Shown piece after piece: positions 13,743-43,788 of a DNA stretch of 64,000 nucleotides. A model generated the notes under the pieces. That model had not been told where the DNA came from. It saw only the letters and a program-made list of their open reading frames with translations, and made no database searches. This DNA is from an uncultured Christensenella sp. (GTDB lineage: Bacteria > Bacillota > Clostridia > Christensenellales > UBA1242). Within the stretch, counting starts at the first letter, position 1. Every line of letters begins with the position of its first letter. Position numbers and translations under genes: made by a program. The DNA is taken from positions 22,742 to 86,741 of the forward strand of contig CAOJZM010000001.1 of the NCBI GenBank assembly GCA_948466185.1, written 5' to 3'.

Positions 13743-13842
13743 TGCCCGCTCCTTATAACTTAAAGTGTACATAATTAATAAAAAAAAAGCAAATGTTTAA
13801 CAAAAATGTTTATGGATAAAATTAGTACATGAGGAGGAAACT

Positions 13843-34401: not shown

Positions 34402-34435
34402 AAAAGATGAACTTAAATGTTCATCTTTTTTTTTA
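34400..34435. terminator. Bidirectional terminator (lipoprotein / rplA)
   Basis: aaaa-AGATGAAC-ttaaat-GTTCATCT-ttttttttt. Confidence 0.8.
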
Positions 34436-37229: not shown

Positions 37230-37335
37230 TATTTCTCCTATATTTAATTAGATTTTACCATAAAAAAAAAGAAATTCAAAATAATTTGAATAACTTTTCA
37301 CTTAATATGTATAAAAAACCCATAATTATGGATTT

Positions 37336-37606: not shown

Positions 37607-39358
37607 CTACATTTTTTCTGGAACTTCGATAGCAAGCACATCAAGTGCTTCCACAAGCTTTTTCTTAACAAGTTTTAAAAGTGCAATCCATCCGGCTTTT
37701 CGTTCTGGATTCTTTTCATTGATTATATTGTAATTGTTATAGAAGGATGAGAAGGCACTTGCGAGATCATAAACAGCAAGACATAAACCATTGAGAGATT
37801 TTTCCTCATAACAAATTTCATAAGCAGAATTAAGTTTGAGTATTGCTCTTATTATATTTCTTTCTTCTTCTGTTTGAATCTGGATTTTTCCGGCAGGAAT
37901 ATCAACCTTGTTTAATATAGAATTAATACGCACAACTGTATACTGAATATATGGGCCAGTCTTACCCTCAAACGCCATAAATTTGTCAATATCAAACACA
38001 TAATCTTTTGCAACATTATTGATAAGATCGCCAAATTTCATCGCAGCCACACCGATTTTAAGAGCGAGCTCCTCACCGCCTTCCACCCCGTTTGCTTTAA
38101 GCTTTTCTGCCGCTTTTGTTGAAAGCATGGAAATTATATCCTCAAGTTTGATTGTATCTCCACTACGGGTTTTGAAAGGTTTACCGTCACGACCATTCAT
38201 GGTTCCATTAACAATATGAATAAGTTGTTGATTTTCTGGCGAAATTCCGCTCATTTTGCAAACCCTAAACACCTGATTGAAATGCAGTTTTTGACGTGCA
38301 TCAGTAACATACTCAATACGGTCAATATTTTTATAGGTATTATTCCTCATAAAAATGGTTGCAATGTCGGTGGTTGCATAAAGAGCTGCACCGTTTGATT
38401 TTTGAATTAAACATGGGGGCATAGGATTGAGATATTTTACTTGTCCATTTTTATCTGTGGTTGGAACGTTTTCACCGTCACGCGCAACCTCAACAACAAG
38501 GGCTCCCTCACTTTCTTTTAAAAGTCCCTTATCACTTATGATTTTAATTGCTTCAGGACAATATTCATCCGCAGTGCTTTCCCCATACCACAAATCAAAG
38601 TTGGCACCTAGGCGACTGTAATTTTCCTTTATTTCTTTTACAGAAAGTTCACGTATCACTTGATAGATTTCATAGAAAGGGCTTTCTTTATGTTGGATTT
38701 TTAAAGTCCATTCTTCTGCTTTTAACCTAAAATCTTCTTCTTTATCTTTCCTTGCACTTGCCTTTGGATAGGCTTCATTCAAGTCATCCAAAGTAAGTTT
38801 TTTATTTTTACCCTTGCCAAAGTAACCATCAAGTTTGCCATCTTCAAAAAGCTGAAGTTCGGTGAGACCCATCTGAAGTCCCCAATCTCCAAGATGGACA
38901 TCGGAAATCACTTTGTCGCCCATATGCTTATATAGTCTTTTCAAACTTTCGCCAATAATAGCCGGACGCAAATGTCCAACGTGCAGGGCCTTAGCAACAT
39001 TTGCACCACCATAATCCAAAACAATAAATTGTGAATTTTGATGTTTTGGCAAACCTCCTCTTTCATCCTCAAAGTAGGCCTGTCCAAGTTTTGCAAGTTT
39101 GCTGTCTGTCAATTTTACGTTGATAAACGCTTTCACAACAAAAAATTCAAAATCTTCTGTTTTTTTAATATTTTTAACTATATTTTCAGCCATTTCAATT
39201 GGATTTTGTCCAATTTTTTTTGCAAGGGCAAAACAGCCATTGCATTGAAAGTCACAAACCTCAGGTAATGAAGAAAAGGAGATTGTTAAATTCACCTCTC
39301 CATAACCTGCTTTTTTTGCTGCATCATTTAATATTTTTTCAATCTCTTTTCTGATCAT
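37607..39358 (-). CDS. argS: Arginine--tRNA ligase
   Basis: 583 aa. HVGHLRPAIIGESL (HIGH-type motif) and a C-terminal DALR-like anticodon-binding region. Confidence 0.93.
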   Translation of the reverse strand: MIRKEIEKILNDAAKKAGYGEVNLTISFSSLPEVCDFQCNGCFALAKKIGQNPIEMAENIVKNIKKTEDFEFFVVKAFINVKLTDSKLAKLGQAYFEDERGGLPKHQNSQFIVLDYGGANVAKALHVGHLRPAIIGESLKRLYKHMGDKVISDVHLGDWGLQMGLTELQLFEDGKLDGYFGKGKNKKLTLDDLNEAYPKASARKDKEEDFRLKAEEWTLKIQHKESPFYEIYQVIRELSVKEIKENYSRLGANFDLWYGESTADEYCPEAIKIISDKGLLKESEGALVVEVARDGENVPTTDKNGQVKYLNPMPPCLIQKSNGAALYATTDIATIFMRNNTYKNIDRIEYVTDARQKLHFNQVFRVCKMSGISPENQQLIHIVNGTMNGRDGKPFKTRSGDTIKLEDIISMLSTKAAEKLKANGVEGGEELALKIGVAAMKFGDLINNVAKDYVFDIDKFMAFEGKTGPYIQYTVVRINSILNKVDIPAGKIQIQTEEERNIIRAILKLNSAYEICYEEKSLNGLCLAVYDLASAFSSFYNNYNIINEKNPERKAGWIALLKLVKKKLVEALDVLAIEVPEKM

Positions 39359-39383
39359 TCTTCCCTCAAAGTTGTATTATTTT

Positions 39384-39974
39384 TTATTTCATTAATCGGC
39401 GTTCTTCAAGCGCCCTTGAAAGAGTTACTTCATCGGCATATTCAAGGTCGCTTCCCATTGCAACACCTTGAGCAAGCCGAGTAACCTTAACTTCTAGTGG
39501 TTTAAGAAGCCGCGCAATATACATTGCTGTAGCATCTCCCTCAACATCGGGATTTGTTGCCATTATGACCTCTTCAACGTTATCCTCTTTTATACGCTCT
39601 AAAAGCTCGCGGATGCGTATATCGTCAGGTCCTTTGTTTTCAAGTGGACTGATTGTGCCAAAAAGCACATGGTAAACACCATTATAATCCTTTACCTTTT
39701 CCATGGATATGACATCCTTTGGCTCTTTTACAACGCAGATTATCTTGCGATTTCGTTTTTCGCAGATCGGACAAATTTCACGGTCAGTAAAATTGCCACA
39801 AATCTTACAAAAGGCAATTCTATTCTTGGCTTCAATAATTGCATTTGCAAAGTTTTCTGCCCGTGCTTTGTTCCCTTCAATAATGGAATAAGCATAACGC
39901 TGTGCAGACTTATAACCAACGCCTGGAAGAGTCCTGAACTGTTCAATCAATCTTTCAATAGTTTCGTTCTGCAT
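39384..39974 (-). CDS. recR: Recombination protein RecR
   Basis: HhH (LPGVGYKSAQRYA), C4 Zn finger CKICGNFTDREICPIC, and a Toprim domain. Confidence 0.95.
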   Translation of the reverse strand: MQNETIERLIEQFRTLPGVGYKSAQRYAYSIIEGNKARAENFANAIIEAKNRIAFCKICGNFTDREICPICEKRNRKIICVVKEPKDVISMEKVKDYNGVYHVLFGTISPLENKGPDDIRIRELLERIKEDNVEEVIMATNPDVEGDATAMYIARLLKPLEVKVTRLAQGVAMGSDLEYADEVTLSRALEERRLMK

Positions 39975-39975
39975 A

Positions 39976-40296
39976 TTACATTCCCGGAAGTTGTGGCAGT
40001 TTCTCTTTTTCAGTCTTGCTTATTTGGTTCATTGCATCGTTAAAAGCAGATACAATCAAATCTTCAAGCATCTCAACATCATCTGGGTCAACCACTTCTT
40101 GTTTAATCTTAACGCCTTTTAAAGTTTTATTTCCAAACATAACCACTTCAACCATACCGCCGCCACTGCGTGCAGTAAACTCGGTTGCGTCTATTTCTGC
40201 TCTTGTTCTTTGCATATCTTCCTGCATTTTTTGTGCTTGACGCATAAGCGCCTGCATATTCCCCCCGCCAAAGCCATTAAATCCACCATAAGCCAT
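39976..40296 (-). CDS. ybaB: Nucleoid-associated protein YbaB/EbfC
   Basis: 106 aa. MQALMRQAQKMQEDMQ...GGGMVEVVMFGNKTLKGVKI... is typical of the family. Confidence 0.9.
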   Translation of the reverse strand: MAYGGFNGFGGGNMQALMRQAQKMQEDMQRTRAEIDATEFTARSGGGMVEVVMFGNKTLKGVKIKQEVVDPDDVEMLEDLIVSAFNDAMNQISKTEKEKLPQLPGM

Positions 40297-40327
40297 AATT
40301 ATCTATCCTCCAATTTTAATATATGTT

Positions 40328-40654
40328 TTACTTTATTATTAAGTAATCTCCAAGCATTCCTGTCAACTTTTCGATATCTTTTTCCTGACCAGTTTTTTCC
40401 TTAGGCGTGTAAGCAACCTTAAAGTCTAAGTCAAGGCCCTGCCAACGCAGTGCTGTTTCAATTTCTCGCCGCCCGTCAGTAAGAAGATTATTAAGCATGC
40501 TATCTTTTACATTGACCACGAGATAATGCTCATTAACCAAAACATCGGTTATATCCCCGCATGCAACATGCAATGCCACCTGATGATGTTCTTTGAGAAA
40601 CAAAACCACCTTGCCCCAAATCGTTTTTGCACTAAGATTACCCTTAGTTTGCAT
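40328..40654 (-). CDS. Stand-alone ORF resembling the C-terminal (tau-specific) domain of Firmicute DnaX; in the -1 frame relative to dnaX
   Basis: 108 aa. IWGKVVLFLKEHHQVALHVACGDITDVLVNEHYLVVNVKDSMLNNLLTDGRREIETALRWQGLDLDFKV follows the pattern I recall for the W..IL..lk......l..a....v.....l.l.f C-terminal domain of Gram-positive DnaX. No SD of its own was seen. Confidence 0.6.
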   Translation of the reverse strand: MQTKGNLSAKTIWGKVVLFLKEHHQVALHVACGDITDVLVNEHYLVVNVKDSMLNNLLTDGRREIETALRWQGLDLDFKVAYTPKEKTGQEKDIEKLTGMLGDYLIIK

Positions 40655-40659
40655 AATTT

Positions 40660-41772
40660 TTAGTTTTTTTTTACTTCCTCGCCAGAATACCCCATCATTG
40701 CAGACAGTGCCAATGTTTCAAGCAGCAATCTTGGTGAAAGAGTATATCTTAGTTCGTTTTCTGCTCCACCAAAAATCTGCATATAAGATATAAGGGTCTT
40801 TTCCGAGGTTTGTTTTGCCTGCTCTAAACATTTTTGAAAAGCATCTTCGGGAAGGTTTAATATCTCGTTAGGGTCTTGGCAAGTTGCACACACAAGCAGG
40901 TTGCGAGCATGTTTAGAAAGTTCTTTTACAAGCACCGACATATTCTTTCCTGTTTTATCAAGTTCATCAATCAACGCCAAAAGCCCACCAACGTCTTTGC
41001 TTAACATAACCTCATAAAATTTAATTAAAATATCATAATCAGTGGTGCCAAGCACCTTAAGCACATTATCTTTTGTAATTTTACCTTCGCTGTAAGCACA
41101 AATGCTGTCAGCTATAGATAATGTGTCACGTACACTCCCTTCCCCGCTTGATGCAATAAGTTTGAGTGCGTCATCATCATAAGAAATTTCCTCACTGTCA
41201 AGGATTGAACTAAGAAGTTTGGTCAGTTCATCCACGCTTACAAGTCTAAAGTCAAATCTTACACATCTTGATAGAATGGTTTGAGGAAGTTTGTGCACCT
41301 CAGTTGTCGCAAGGATAAAGATGACATGTGCAGGAGGCTCTTCCAAAGTTTTAAGAAGTGCGTTAAATGCACTGTCAGTAAGCATGTGCACTTCGTCAAT
41401 GATATAAACCTTATATTTTGCACCCACCGGCAAAAATTTAACTTTTTCTCTTATTTCACGAATATCGTCAACCCTATTATTTGAAGCAGCATCAATTTCT
41501 ATGATATTAATGTCGTTTTCATTTTCCAAGCGTTTACAAGTTGCACACTGACCACATGGAGAACCATGTTGGTTATTTTCACAGTTCACCGCCCGTGCAA
41601 AGATTCTTGCTATACTTGTTTTTCCTATCCCACGCGAGCCTGTAAAAAGATAAGCGTGACCAAGTTTATCACCTGCGATTTGATTTTCAAGTGCTTTGGT
41701 GATATGTCCTTGCCCTACGACCTCGCTAAAAACTTTGGGTCTATATTTTCTGTATAATGCTAAATGTTCCAT
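40660..41772 (-). CDS. dnaX: DNA polymerase III subunit gamma/tau, domains I-III only (370 aa)
   Basis: Walker A GSRGIGKTS, Zn module CENNQHGSPCGQCATC, DEVHML, and sensor SRC. Confidence 0.9.
   Translation of the reverse strand: MEHLALYRKYRPKVFSEVVGQGHITKALENQIAGDKLGHAYLFTGSRGIGKTSIARIFARAVNCENNQHGSPCGQCATCKRLENENDINIIEIDAASNNRVDDIREIREKVKFLPVGAKYKVYIIDEVHMLTDSAFNALLKTLEEPPAHVIFILATTEVHKLPQTILSRCVRFDFRLVSVDELTKLLSSILDSEEISYDDDALKLIASSGEGSVRDTLSIADSICAYSEGKITKDNVLKVLGTTDYDILIKFYEVMLSKDVGGLLALIDELDKTGKNMSVLVKELSKHARNLLVCATCQDPNEILNLPEDAFQKCLEQAKQTSEKTLISYMQIFGGAENELRYTLSPRLLLETLALSAMMGYSGEEVKKN
40664..40672 (-). repeat. A9 run (slippery tract) at the dnaX 3' end
   Basis: Minus strand reads GAG GAA GTA AAA AAA AAC TAA AAA TT ATG. 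In the -1 frame it reads ...AAA AAA AAA CTA AAA ATT ATG with no stop. Confidence 0.95.
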
Positions 41773-41835
41773 ACGAGTATTGTATCTTAAACCTAAAAAA
41801 AACGCAAACGATTTAACACCGACTTTAAAAAAGCA

Positions 41836-41860
41836 ATTAAAAAAATGACCTTTTGGCCAT
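41836..41860 (-). terminator. tpiA terminator
   Basis: Minus-strand RNA is AUGGCC-AAAA-GGUCAU (one G.U pair) followed by UUUUUUU. Confidence 0.65.
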
Positions 41861-41863
41861 TTT

Positions 41864-42610
41864 TTATAGCAATGATAATAAATTTAAAAACATGTTTACA
41901 TCTAAACTTGCGCCGCCGATAAGTGCACCATCCATACCCTTGGCTTTAAATAAAGCTGTTGCATTTTTATTGTTTACACTTCCGCCATATAGCACTCTGA
42001 TTTGCTTTGCTGCCCGAGATGAGAAATCATCTTCAATAACTTTGCGAATAACCTTCACCGCATATTCTATTTCCCTGACACTTGCGTGCTTGCCTGTACC
42101 AATCGCCCAAATTGGTTCATATGCGAGAATTACTTTTTCCAGCTCATTTTCATAAAGCCCTTTTAAACCTTCCTCAATCTGCTCTCTAAGAGAATCAAGG
42201 GTCTTTAATGTGTTTTTTTCAACAAGGCTTTCTCCCACACAAAGTATAACCCCCAGTCCATTTTTTAAAGCCACTTTAATCTTTTTATTGATAAGTTTGT
42301 TGTTCTCTTTAAATTTGCTACGTCTTTCACTATGTCCCACTATAACATAATCAACACCAGCATCTTTTAACATTGCTCCACTTATTTCGCCGGTATTTCC
42401 ACCCTCTTCATAGTCAGAAAGATTCTGTGCACCCAGTTTAATTTTTGAATCTTTTAATATATACTTTGCTTCCGCCAATGAAGTAAAGGGAAGACAAACA
42501 CAAAGTTCCACATTTTCCGCTTTATCAAAACGTGAAACCAAATTCATTAGATAATTTTTACACTCCGAAGGTGTTTTGTTCATTTTTAAGTTTGCAATGA
42601 TTGTTTTCAT
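41864..42610 (-). CDS. tpiA: Triosephosphate isomerase
   Basis: IIANLKMNK, VGHSERR and AYEPIWAIGTG motifs. Confidence 0.95.
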   Translation of the reverse strand: MKTIIANLKMNKTPSECKNYLMNLVSRFDKAENVELCVCLPFTSLAEAKYILKDSKIKLGAQNLSDYEEGGNTGEISGAMLKDAGVDYVIVGHSERRSKFKENNKLINKKIKVALKNGLGVILCVGESLVEKNTLKTLDSLREQIEEGLKGLYENELEKVILAYEPIWAIGTGKHASVREIEYAVKVIRKVIEDDFSSRAAKQIRVLYGGSVNNKNATALFKAKGMDGALIGGASLDVNMFLNLLSLL

Positions 42611-43788
42611 CGAATCTTCTCCTGAATCACTTCAATACATGGCAGTGAACCATCTTCCATAAATTTAAGGGTTGCACCACCGCCAGTTGAAAGAAAGTTG
42701 ACCTTATCAGCACATTTGCTTGCCTTAATTGCACTGACGCTGTCTCCTCCACCCACGATTGAAAACGCTTCCGATTCTCCCACCGCTTGTGCAATTCTGA
42801 GTGTTCCCTCCCTGAATTTAGGATCTTCAAACTTTCCAACAGGGCCATTCCAAATTATCTGTTTTGCATTCTTGATTTCCTTGCTGAACAGCTTGACTGT
42901 TTTAGGCCCAATGTCCATACCAATCATGTCATCCGCAAAACTTTCAGTTGCAATGCGTTTTTGACGCTTGTCATCTTTTCGGACAACAACATGATCTATT
43001 GGAAGAAGCACTTTCTTTCCCTTTTCACTTGCATATTGCAGCACCTCTCTTGCAGTGTTCACTGAGTCAAGATAGGTCAAACTTTCGCCAACTGGGATCC
43101 CCTGTGCAAGCAAAAAGGTATAGGCCATCGCACCACCAATTAAGATTGTATCCGCCTTATCAATAAAACGTTTTAAGATTTTTATTTTATCAGGAACTTT
43201 GGCACCACCAATTATCGCAACAAATGGTCTATGTGGATTTTCCATCGCATTTCCAATGGTTGTAACTTCTTTTTCCATTAAAAGTCCAATCGCATTAGGC
43301 ATAACGCGGGCAAGACCATAGGTTGAAGCGTGTTTTCTGTGTGCACAACCGAAAGCATCGTTGACATATATATCCCCCATAGCTGCCAGTTCACGACAGA
43401 AGTTCATGTCACAGGCACGCTCTTCCTTATAAAATCGTATATTTTCAAGAAGAAGAACATCCCCATTATTCATGCTGTGTAACCTCTCCCGAACTTCTGG
43501 ACCCAGCACCTTATTACTGAAATATACCTTTGCATGTAACTTTTTCATAAGTATAAGTGAAACCGTCCAAAGCGATGTACGCACTTCAAAGCCATCAGGG
43601 CGGCCCAAGTGGGACATAATCACCACCTTTGCCTGCTGCTCTATTAGATATTTTATGGTTGGCAAAGCTTCTGTAATCCTTGTATAGTCAGTCACTCTTC
43701 CCAGATTGTCTATTGGACAGTTAAAATCCACCCTAAGAAGCACAACCTTTCCTTTTAAATTTACAAGATCTTTTACTGTTCTTTTCAT
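42607..43788 (-). CDS. pgk: Phosphoglycerate kinase
   Basis: 393 aa. RVDFNCP, NDAFGCAHRKHAST, GGGDS. 4-nt overlap with tpiA. Confidence 0.95.
   Translation of the reverse strand: MKRTVKDLVNLKGKVVLLRVDFNCPIDNLGRVTDYTRITEALPTIKYLIEQQAKVVIMSHLGRPDGFEVRTSLWTVSLILMKKLHAKVYFSNKVLGPEVRERLHSMNNGDVLLLENIRFYKEERACDMNFCRELAAMGDIYVNDAFGCAHRKHASTYGLARVMPNAIGLLMEKEVTTIGNAMENPHRPFVAIIGGAKVPDKIKILKRFIDKADTILIGGAMAYTFLLAQGIPVGESLTYLDSVNTAREVLQYASEKGKKVLLPIDHVVVRKDDKRQKRIATESFADDMIGMDIGPKTVKLFSKEIKNAKQIIWNGPVGKFEDPKFREGTLRIAQAVGESEAFSIVGGGDSVSAIKASKCADKVNFLSTGGGATLKFMEDGSLPCIEVIQEKIR

What the first reader, a model, noticed from the sequence alone, without database searches (positions are those of the whole stretch)
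40328..40673. dnaX is split at an A9 run, with the tau-like C-terminal domain continuing in the -1 frame (frameshift, slippage, or homopolymer error)
dnaX (370 aa, domains I-III, gamma-like) ends ...GAG GAA GTA AAA AAA AAC TAA. Eight nt after the first base of the stop codon, the next ORF starts (ATG 40654). It encodes 108 aa resembling the C-terminal domain normally fused to Gram-positive DnaX, and has no SD of its own. Read in the -1 frame, the A-run flows straight into it (AAA AAA AAA CTA AAA ATT ATG CAA...) with no stop. A -1 ribosomal slip on A AAA AAA, or insertion of one A by RNA polymerase, would therefore yield a ~480-aa tau-like protein, while standard decoding gives gamma. Programmed -1 frameshifting (E. 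coli, A AAA AAG) and transcriptional slippage on an A9 tract (Thermus thermophilus) are both established for dnaX, but there the recoding makes the short form. Here the polarity would be reversed. The mundane alternative is a 1-nt homopolymer sequencing error.
Basis: partly seen in the sequence, partly recalled or inferred. Interest (0 to 1): 0.65.

Follow-up and report, generated by a model that had tools for sequence, protein, structure and literature searches.

The report
Programmed A9 slippage site in dnaX
In this gut Clostridia bacterium the replication clamp-loader gene dnaX is interrupted on purpose at a run of nine A's: ordinary decoding gives a short gamma-like protein and a one-base slip gives the full-length tau-like one. 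About 80 related species share this, so it is a real member of an already described kind of recoding, not a sequencing error.

Summary
On the minus strand, dnaX (41772..40660, 370 aa) ends GTA AAA AAA AAC TAA. A 108-codon ORF (40654..40328) follows in the -1 frame, which is open back through the A9 run (40664-40672). It is not a sequencing error. DNA contigs from five independent studies show A9. In 80 sequences (79 GTDB species genomes plus the window), 78 have exactly A9 and two have A10, although flanking synonymous sites are near saturation. Many relatives have no start codon for the downstream part, and the "fused" relatives are simply A10 versions of the same motif. The C-terminal part is under strong purifying selection and has a DnaA-N-like fold, as tau domain V does. 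I found no conserved SD-like element, no stem-loop and no Rfam dnaX frameshift element. In related species, some metatranscriptome contigs carry A10 or break exactly at the run, whereas DNA or unlabelled-kind contigs do not. Best reading: programmed recoding, most probably RNA-polymerase slippage (+1 A) making tau while standard decoding makes gamma; -1 ribosomal frameshifting is not excluded. The reversed polarity was described by Antonov et al. 2013 in Chlorobi, Bacteroidetes and Verrucomicrobia. This is a new, large Clostridial lineage of that kind.

The parts
40660..41772 (-). dnaX zero-frame ORF: 370-aa gamma-like product (clamp-loader domains I-III), ending ...EEVKKN*
   Evidence: ORF list. 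Pfam PF13177, PF00004, PF22608, PF12169 and NCBIfam NF004046 / TIGR02397.
40664..40672 (-). A9 slippery run (T9 on the + strand): the recoding site. One extra A in the mRNA, or a -1 ribosomal slip on A_AAA_AAA / A_AAA_AAC, joins the two frames.
   Evidence: Sequence. The run is exactly 9 nt in 78 of 80 related sequences and 10 nt in the other two. It is the only A/T run of 9 or more inside a credible gene in the window.
40660..40663 (-). C + TAA: the zero-frame stop directly after the run (AAC TAA). Read in the -1 frame it is part of CTA AAA (Leu-Lys).
   Evidence: C T [G/A] A follows the run in 76 of 80 sequences. The zero-frame stop starts 1 nt after the run in 74 and 7 nt after it in 4.
40328..40663 (-). 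Tau-specific segment in the -1 frame: a short linker (LKIMQTKGNLSAKT) and a roughly 95-aa DnaA-N-like alpha/beta domain; stop at 40330-40328. It is annotated mechanically as a 108-aa ORF from ATG 40654.
   Evidence: Translation. It is fused in frame in relatives. Nucleotide identity by codon position is 0.84/0.92/0.44, and no stops occur in 80 of 80 sequences. AF2 model pLDDT 83.7. Fold and weak Pfam matches.
40328..41772 (-). Composite tau-like product (481 aa) obtained by reading AAA AAA AAA CTA... after a +1 A insertion or a -1 shift.
   Evidence: The constructed fusion aligns end to end (99-100% coverage, 61-68% identity) with 478-485-aa relatives whose junction reads VKKKLKI.

Best explanation
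This is a conserved programmed recoding site in dnaX. Standard transcription and translation give a 370-aa gamma-like clamp-loader subunit that stops right after the A9 run (AAC TAA). In a fraction of transcripts RNA polymerase slips on the nine A's and adds one untemplated A (A10). The ribosome then reads ...V K K K L K I... straight into the -1 frame and makes a 481-aa tau-like protein carrying a C-terminal DnaA-N-like domain. By analogy with tau domain V, that domain would tether the replicative polymerase. Shown here: the anatomy, its conservation, the selection on both parts, and the absence of ribosomal-frameshift stimulators. Inferred: that the slip happens mainly at transcription, and its efficiency. 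The only direct evidence for a transcriptional slip is indirect RNA-contig evidence from related species. A contribution from -1 ribosomal frameshifting on the same run is not excluded.
For: (1) It is not an error. DNA contigs of runs X1, X2, X3, X4 and X6, from five studies, are identical through the run. (2) Conservation. In 80 sequences (79 species-representative genomes plus the window), the run is A9 in 78 and A10 in 2. The codon before it always ends in A (GTA, GCA, ACA or TCA), and C-T-R-A follows in 76. Meanwhile Lys codons elsewhere in these genes are 26% AAG and third-position identity in the adjacent domain is only 0.44. (3) The downstream part needs the slip. Several loci (L012, L013, L020, L042, L058, L060, L075) have no ATG/GTG/TTG before the conserved WGK motif, and many others have candidates only inside or after it. 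No locus has a stop in that frame. (4) 'Fused' relatives (L047, L077, P0003, P0005, P0047) are A10 versions of the same motif, with AAC TGA/TAA kept in the +1 frame. This one-nucleotide interchange is what Atkins et al. 2016 (PMC5009743) describe for efficient dnaX recoding. (5) The full 9-nt (or 10-nt) run is conserved, more than the heptamer a ribosomal slip needs. Nine A's is the run shown to cause RNA-polymerase slippage in Thermus thermophilus dnaX (PMC1088944, citing Larsen 2000). (6) No ribosomal stimulators were found. RNAalifold gives 0 pairs over 45 species. MFE z-scores are -0.2 downstream and -0.5 upstream. SD-like pairing occurs in only 1-23% of loci at any one spacing. There is no Rfam dnaX frameshift element. 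(7) RNA versus DNA. For the species of L012, metatranscriptome contigs in X29 and X33 (two studies) carry one extra A in the run. Other RNA contigs end or start exactly at the run's boundaries (X27, X29, X30; and X44, X45 for a relative of L069). Contigs of X35, X36, X38, X39 and X47 (kind not on record, probably DNA) pass through as A9. (8) A/T runs of 9 are otherwise nearly absent. In 481 kb of related loci, 77 of the 82 nine-nt runs and both ten-nt runs are this site.
Against: For the window's own species, the three RNA contigs that cross the run (X10, X15, X24, depth about 5) show A9 only. Only assembled contigs were available, not reads. Minority forms are therefore invisible, and the A10 RNA contigs (depth 2.5-2.8) could come from reverse-transcriptase slippage (PMC5737552), from A10 strains, or from DNA carry-over. 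A_AAA_AAC is a proven stimulator-less -1 ribosomal frameshift site in IS elements (PMC4066793), so the ribosome could do part or all of the job. The genome is AT-rich (35% GC); Baranov et al. 2005 (PMC1088944) warn that AT-rich organisms may suppress slippage. No protein-level evidence exists for the 481-aa product.
Confidence: 0.62

Rival explanations
1. Programmed -1 ribosomal frameshifting: ribosomes slip back one base on A_AAA_AAA or A_AAA_AAC, possibly helped by the adjacent zero-frame stop, and make tau from an unaltered A9 mRNA.
For: The zero-frame phasing is always N.NA AAA AAA AAC TRA, so a canonical X_XXY_YYZ heptamer is in phase in all A9 loci. A_AAA_AAC without a known stimulator is a proven -1 site (PMC4066793). 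Atkins et al. 2016 consider ribosomal frameshifting for some reversed dnaX genes (PMC5009743). RNA contigs of the window species show A9 only.
Against: No conserved downstream structure. No conserved SD-like element. No Rfam RF00382-type match. Two A's beyond the heptamer are invariant in 80 of 80 sequences, which the ribosomal model does not require. Run-length heterogeneity appears in RNA but not in DNA assemblies of relatives.
Confidence: 0.23
2. A true gene split: gamma-like DnaX and the 108-aa domain are separate proteins, the second translated from ATG 40654 by termination-reinitiation coupling.
For: In the window and its closest relatives (L001, L003-L006) an ATG lies 9 nt after the run and only 5 nt after the stop. 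Gene callers annotate two ORFs.
Against: There is no SD before the ATG. Most relatives lack any start codon at that place, yet keep the domain intact and under selection. The A-run would have no reason to be invariant. An untethered domain could not link anything to the clamp loader, which is what tau does.
Confidence: 0.05
3. DNA-level phase variation: slipped-strand mispairing during replication toggles A9 and A10, so subpopulations encode gamma or tau.
For: Both A9 and A10 states exist among related species and metagenome contigs.
Against: DNA contigs of five runs for the window species, and of four runs of unrecorded kind (probably DNA) for L012, show a single A9 form with no breaks at the run. 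Tau is essential in studied bacteria (established knowledge; see also bioRxiv 10.1101/2022.11.10.516041), so an A9 cell would need recoding anyway.
Confidence: 0.04
4. A homopolymer sequencing or assembly error in an ordinary fused gene, or a recent pseudogene.
For: A one-base difference would restore a single ORF. A few relatives are A10.
Against: A9 occurs in independent assemblies from five studies. It is present in 77 of 79 species-representative genomes and in more than 100 protein clusters of about 370 aa from NCBI, ENA, JGI and Logan. Both halves are under purifying selection.
Confidence: 0.01

Closest known systems
[quoted passage not shown] 2013, NAR 41:6514, PMC3711429; repeated in Atkins et al. 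2016, PMC5009743)
   Same: DnaX domains I-III end just after a poly-A tract. The tau C-terminal part continues in the -1 frame without its own start. The poly-A is conserved, and programmed transcriptional realignment is the proposed mechanism.
   Different: The described cases are in Chlorobi, Bacteroidetes (Flavobacterium, Cytophaga, Capnocytophaga) and Verrucomicrobia, mostly A10 followed by G. Here it is a clade of gut Clostridia (Bacillota) with A9 + C + an immediate stop. The tau extension is very short (about 110 aa). This is probably an independent origin. I found no Clostridial case in the searchable literature.
Thermus thermophilus dnaX transcriptional slippage (Larsen et al. 2000, as summarised in PMC1088944)
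   Same: A run of nine A's in the sense strand of dnaX. mRNAs with variable A number give tau and gamma. Stops lie close by in the alternative frames.
   Different: In Thermus the DNA encodes tau in frame and slippage makes gamma. In the window the DNA encodes gamma and slippage must make tau. The A10 relatives (L047, L077, P0003, P0005, P0047) do have the Thermus polarity.
E. coli dnaX -1 programmed ribosomal frameshift (A_AAA_AAG, upstream SD, downstream stem-loop; Rfam RF00382)
   Same: The same gene, the same pair of products, and a lysine-codon slippery site.
   Different: Polarity is reversed. There is no AAG, no conserved SD-like element, no stem-loop and no Rfam match.
Shigella mxiE and Citrobacter tssM: transcriptional slippage needed for the longer product (PMC1088944, PMC4256274)
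   Same: Two overlapping ORFs are joined by an untemplated nucleotide added at a homopolymer, so the long form depends on slippage.
   Different: These are accessory virulence or secretion genes, not an essential replication gene, and they lack comparable conservation over tens of species.
IS1 insAB' -1 frameshift on A_AAA_AAC (cluster A_AAA_AAC_1 in PMC4066793)
   Same: The same heptamer in the same phase and no known stimulator; the fusion protein is the minor product.
   Different: It is a mobile element using a six-A run. Here nine A's are invariant.

Membership tests
Two-ORF dnaX with recoding required for tau (Antonov 2013 type) | DnaX domains I-III ORF terminates at or just after a homopolymeric slippery tract | tested here: met
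   GTA AAA AAA AAC TAA; Pfam/NCBIfam domains I-III.
Two-ORF dnaX with recoding required for tau (Antonov 2013 type) | Tau-specific C-terminal region continues in the -1 frame and is homologous to the C-terminus of single-ORF DnaX proteins | tested here: met
   The -1 frame is open through the run. The fusion aligns over 99-100% of its length with 478-485-aa relatives and with the run-less 507-aa DnaX P0237.
Two-ORF dnaX with recoding required for tau (Antonov 2013 type) | Slippery tract and frame relation conserved across species (purifying selection on the site) | tested here: met
   78 of 80 sequences have A9 with the -1 relation and 2 of 80 have A10 in frame; flanking synonymous sites are diverged.
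Two-ORF dnaX with recoding required for tau (Antonov 2013 type) | Full-length tau protein actually produced | not testable with these tools
   No proteomic data could be queried.
Thermus-type dnaX transcriptional slippage | Run of at least 9 A in the sense strand of dnaX | tested here: met
   A9 at 40664-40672.
Thermus-type dnaX transcriptional slippage | mRNA population heterogeneous in A-run length while the DNA is uniform | tested here: inconclusive
   Window species: RNA contigs show A9 only at about 5x depth. Related species: A10 RNA contigs in X29 and X33, and RNA contig ends exactly at the run in X27, X29, X30, X44 and X45. DNA or unlabelled-kind contigs are uninterrupted A9. These are contigs only, not reads.
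Thermus-type dnaX transcriptional slippage | Tau encoded in the zero frame, gamma produced by slippage | tested here: not met
   The window has the reverse polarity. The A10 relatives meet this feature.
E. coli-type dnaX -1 PRF element (RF00382) | A_AAA_AAG heptamer with an upstream SD-like stimulator and a downstream stem-loop | tested here: not met
   The heptamer is A_AAA_AAA / A_AAA_AAC. SD-like pairing occurs in 1-23% of loci at any one spacing. RNAalifold gives 0 pairs. There is no RF00382 hit at E <= 10.
Tau domain V / DnaA-N-like fold (C-terminal domain) | Sequence match to Pfam DnaX_C (PF20964) or DNA_pol3_tau_5 | tested here: not met
   No Pfam hit for the window's protein. Among 88 family members, only 2 give weak PF20964 hits, 5 hit PF23007 (DnaA_N-like_STI) and 14 hit PF11490 (PolC N-II).
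Tau domain V / DnaA-N-like fold (C-terminal domain) | Alpha/beta fold like DnaA domain I / tau domain V | tested here: inconclusive
   AF2 pLDDT 83.7 with order alpha-alpha-beta-beta-alpha-alpha-beta-alpha. Foldseek finds no hit at E <= 0.001. The best by probability is DnaA domain I (4tps, prob 0.99, TM 0.57/0.72). Tau domain V (2aya, 5fku_E) reaches only TM about 0.4.
Tau domain V / DnaA-N-like fold (C-terminal domain) | Binds the replicative polymerase | not testable with these tools
   Inference from position and fold only.

The most novel reading that the evidence does not exclude
A whole order-level clade of gut Clostridia, plus more distant AT-rich relatives with long linkers, makes its essential tau subunit only through RNA-polymerase slippage. 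The gamma:tau ratio, and hence replisome composition, would then be set at transcription. It could respond to conditions that change slippage, such as ATP pool, elongation rate or transcription factors. That would be a regulatory coupling between transcription state and replication not shown for any dnaX.
Probability: 0.15. Interest if true: 0.7.

Novelty: new member of a known kind. Interest (0 to 1): 0.45.

Why it matters
DnaX tau is the organiser of the bacterial replisome. Here an essential protein appears to depend on a non-standard decoding event in at least 77 species of common gut Clostridia. Practically, gene callers split the gene into a 370-aa 'gamma/tau' protein and an unnamed ORF of about 100 aa. 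More than 100 such protein clusters and 164 clusters of the orphan domain exist in public data, so annotation pipelines should join them. Biologically, the site adds a third phylum-level lineage, probably independent, to the reversed dnaX arrangement. It also offers a natural A9/A10 series for asking how the gamma:tau ratio is set. The short C-terminal domain gives a minimal model of the tau polymerase-binding module in Bacillota.

Tried and rejected
- Sequencing error: rejected.
- Pfam and NCBIfam naming of the 108-aa ORF: no hit. The fusion gains no extra NF004046 coverage.
- PDB sequence search with the domain profile: only chance hits such as proteasome alpha-7 at E about 0.1.
- Foldseek against PDB: nothing at E <= 0.001, only a consistent set of weak DnaA-N / DciA / tau-V matches.
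- Downstream stem-loop or upstream hairpin: RNAalifold found 0 pairs, and per-sequence MFE z-scores are near zero. A local hairpin in the window (+11 to +36 after the run) is not conserved.
- SD-like stimulator: no consistent signal.
- Rfam: no dnaX frameshift element, only a sub-threshold c-di-GMP-I-UAU match that I take as chance.
- Raw reads: none were available. All 47 runs are held as contigs, so A9:A10 ratios could not be counted.
- Cluster look-up gave no source names or taxonomy.
- Literature search for a Clostridial dnaX slippage report found none.
Full report
**Observation.** The locus lies on the minus strand: pgk (43788..42607), tpiA (42610..41864), dnaX (41772..40660, 370 aa), a 108-codon ORF (40654..40328), ybaB (40296..39976), recR (39974..39384) and argS (39358..37607). 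dnaX ends ...GAG GAA GTA AAA AAA AAC TAA. The run is exactly nine A's, at + strand positions 40664-40672. The next ATG is 8 nt after the first base of the stop and lies in the -1 frame. That frame is open from about 40720 and reads ...GSKKKLKIMQTKG.... The 370-aa product has clamp-loader domains I-III only: PF13177, PF22608 and PF12169, and NF004046 positions 2-355 of 567. The 108-aa ORF matches no Pfam or NCBIfam family. Every factual element of the finding is confirmed.

**Not an error.** Contigs from DNA runs of five different studies (X1, X2, X3, X4, X6) are identical to the window through the run, with no gaps. A protein search with the hypothetical 481-aa fusion returned mostly proteins of about 370 aa at 70-99% identity, from NCBI, ENA, JGI and Logan assemblies. 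A minority of 478-485-aa proteins at 61-68% identity cover the whole query and read VKKKLKI at the junction. That is exactly the -1 reading of the window's DNA.

**Conservation of the site.** I scanned one genome per GTDB species with a profile of the C-terminal domain. This gave 80 loci, all uncultured gut Clostridia labelled Christensenellaceae, Eubacteriales or Candidatus Caccovivens. 79 of the loci contain both halves.
- Of those 79, 77 have the C-terminal domain in the -1 frame relative to dnaX and 2 have it in frame.
- Across the 79 plus the window, the run is A9 in 78 and A10 in the 2 in-frame cases.
- The preceding codon is GTA, GCA, ACA or TCA, so it always ends in A.
- The run is followed by C-T-[G/A]-A in 76 of 80.
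- The zero-frame stop starts 1 nt after the run in 74 and 7 nt after it in 4.

This invariance contrasts with the background. Lys codons elsewhere in these genes are 26% AAG. Positions flanking the run carry little information. In the adjacent conserved WGK...ACGDIT block, mean pairwise nucleotide identity is 0.84/0.92/0.44 for codon positions 1/2/3. In 481 kb of these loci there are 444 A/T runs of 7, 72 of 8, 82 of 9 and 2 of 10. 77 of the 82 nine-runs, and both ten-runs, are this dnaX site. In the window, the other three A9/T9 runs are intergenic or lie in a doubtful small ORF.

**The downstream part depends on the upstream part.** No locus has a stop between the run and the end of the domain, so the domain is expressed and selected. 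Yet seven loci have no ATG/GTG/TTG before the conserved core, and many others have candidates only within or after it. Where an ATG exists, as in the window and its closest relatives, it is preceded by AAAAAAACTAAAA, which is not an SD. Independent translation therefore cannot be the conserved way of making this domain.

**A9 and A10 are interchangeable states of one motif.** The in-frame cases L047 and L077, and the metagenome proteins P0003, P0005 and P0047, all have GTA AAA AAA AAA CTR AA. Their +1 frame keeps AAC TGA/TAA, and their -1 frame has a stop a few codons on. That is the Thermus arrangement. A more distant 507-aa DnaX (P0237) carries the same C-terminal domain fused, with no A-run at all. 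It is the ordinary ancestral-type state.

**Breadth.** A profile search of 1.84 billion representative proteins found 164 clusters with the domain. Nearly all are stand-alone ORFs of 80-240 aa. Several from AT-rich lineages have Asp/Asn-rich linkers of 80-130 aa and begin ...RKKKLI... Their DNA reads GAA AAA AAA AAC TAA or GTA AAA AAA AAC TAA directly after a dnaX ORF and before ybaB. The site therefore extends beyond the 80-species clade.

**What the C-terminal domain is.** AlphaFold2 with the family alignment gives a confident model (pLDDT 83.7) with order alpha-alpha-beta-beta-alpha-alpha-beta-alpha. Foldseek against the PDB gives no hit at E <= 0.001. The best matches by probability are DnaA domain I (4tps, prob 0.99, TM 0.57/0.72; also 2jmp and 2e0g). 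DciA (8a3v) and E. coli tau domain V (2aya, 5fku_E, TM about 0.4) also appear in the list. Among 88 family members, 14 weakly match PF11490 (PolC N-terminal domain II), 5 match PF23007 (DnaA_N-like domain of the DnaX-like STICHEL) and 2 match PF20964 (DnaX_C). Together with its position at the end of DnaX, this supports a DnaA-N-like module equivalent to tau domain V. It does not meet Pfam membership for the window's own protein. Polymerase binding is an inference.

**Mechanism.** Both a +1 A insertion by RNA polymerase and a -1 ribosomal slip on A_AAA_AAA or A_AAA_AAC would give the same protein. Several results bear on the choice.
- Against the ribosomal model as the main route:
  - There is no conserved RNA structure: RNAalifold gives 0 pairs over 45 species, and MFE z-scores are -0.2 and -0.5.
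  - SD-like pairing upstream occurs in only 1-23% of loci at any one spacing.
  - There is no Rfam dnaX frameshift element.
  - The whole 9-nt run is invariant, although a heptamer would suffice.
- For slippage, from the literature: nine A's is the length shown to make Thermus RNA polymerase slip in dnaX (PMC1088944).
- For slippage, from transcript assemblies:
  - Species of L012 (run at 2971-2979): RNA contigs in X29 and X33, from two studies, contain one extra A. RNA contigs in X27, X29 and X30 end or begin exactly at the run's first or last A. RNA contigs in X26 and X28 read A9. Four runs of unrecorded kind (probably DNA) read straight through as A9.
  - A relative of L069: RNA contigs in X44 and X45 begin exactly at the first A of the run, while X47 (21x depth) passes through.
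  - Interpretation: contig ends at precisely those positions are what a de Bruijn assembler produces when reads differ in run length. This is my inference.
- Caveats:
  - Only contigs were available, and depths were low.
  - The window's own species shows A9 only in three RNA runs.
  - Reverse-transcriptase slippage (PMC5737552), strain variation or DNA carry-over cannot be excluded.
  - A_AAA_AAC works as a stimulator-less ribosomal site in IS elements (PMC4066793).

I therefore put transcriptional slippage at about 0.6 and ribosomal frameshifting as the main route at about 0.2. That the site is programmed recoding of some kind I put at about 0.9.

**Comparison with what is known.** Antonov et al. 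[quoted passage not shown] They found 17 genes in 12 genera. The poly-A cases (7-10 A's) are in Chlorobium, Chlorobaculum, Prosthecochloris, Pelodictyon, Chloroherpeton, Flavobacterium, Cytophaga, Capnocytophaga and Coraliomargarita. Atkins et al. 2016 (PMC5009743) restate this. What is new is the lineage (Bacillota, gut Clostridia), its size (77 of 79 species-representative genomes, more than 100 protein clusters), the exact motif (A9-C-stop) and the natural A9/A10 series. I found no report of a Clostridial case.

**Verdict.** This is a real, conserved, functional recoding site: a new member of a known kind, of moderate interest. The finding should be used to correct annotation, joining the two ORFs as dnaX with a slippage or frameshift note. 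It is a good candidate for a simple RNA, protein or reporter experiment.

Noticed in passing
L081 (about 705-790), L083 (about 2501-2560), L085 (about 526-620); proteins P0229, P0191, P0154, P0220, P0130: More distant, very AT-rich lineages have the same dnaX recoding site (GAA AAA AAA AAC TAA or GTA AAA AAA AAC TAA; -1 frame ...KKKLI...). They have an Asp/Asn/Glu-rich linker of 80-130 aa before the C-terminal domain. In L081 and L083 the run is 10 A's yet keeps the -1 frame relation, because the extra A comes from a GAA codon.
   Followed up: partly
window 40591-40662 (-): A sub-threshold Rfam match to the c-di-GMP-I-UAU riboswitch aptamer (25.3 bits against a gathering score of 65.9, E 0.0044) lies directly downstream of the dnaX stop, inside the tau-specific coding segment. 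It overlaps a local hairpin (ACTAAG...CTTAGT, +11 to +36 after the run, MFE z -1.7) that is not conserved in relatives. Probably chance.
   Followed up: partly
window 13780-13788, 34426-34434, 37262-37270: These are the only other A9/T9 runs in the 64-kb window. The first two lie between ORFs. The third lies in a doubtful 108-aa ORF just downstream of argS. So the dnaX run is the only 9-nt homopolymer inside a credible gene here.
   Followed up: partly
window 41371-41421: Contig depth spikes in every sequencing run, and many foreign contigs align only to about 41380-41418 within dnaX. This is expected for a motif nearly identical across many gut species, not a feature of this genome.
   Followed up: no
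window 37607-43788 (-); L086, L088, L089: The gene order pgk-tpiA-dnaX-(C-domain)-ybaB-recR-argS, or part of it, recurs in relatives. L086 has the full order; L088 and L089 show tpiA-dnaX-ybaB. The intergenic space between tpiA and dnaX in the window is only about 90 nt.
   Followed up: no
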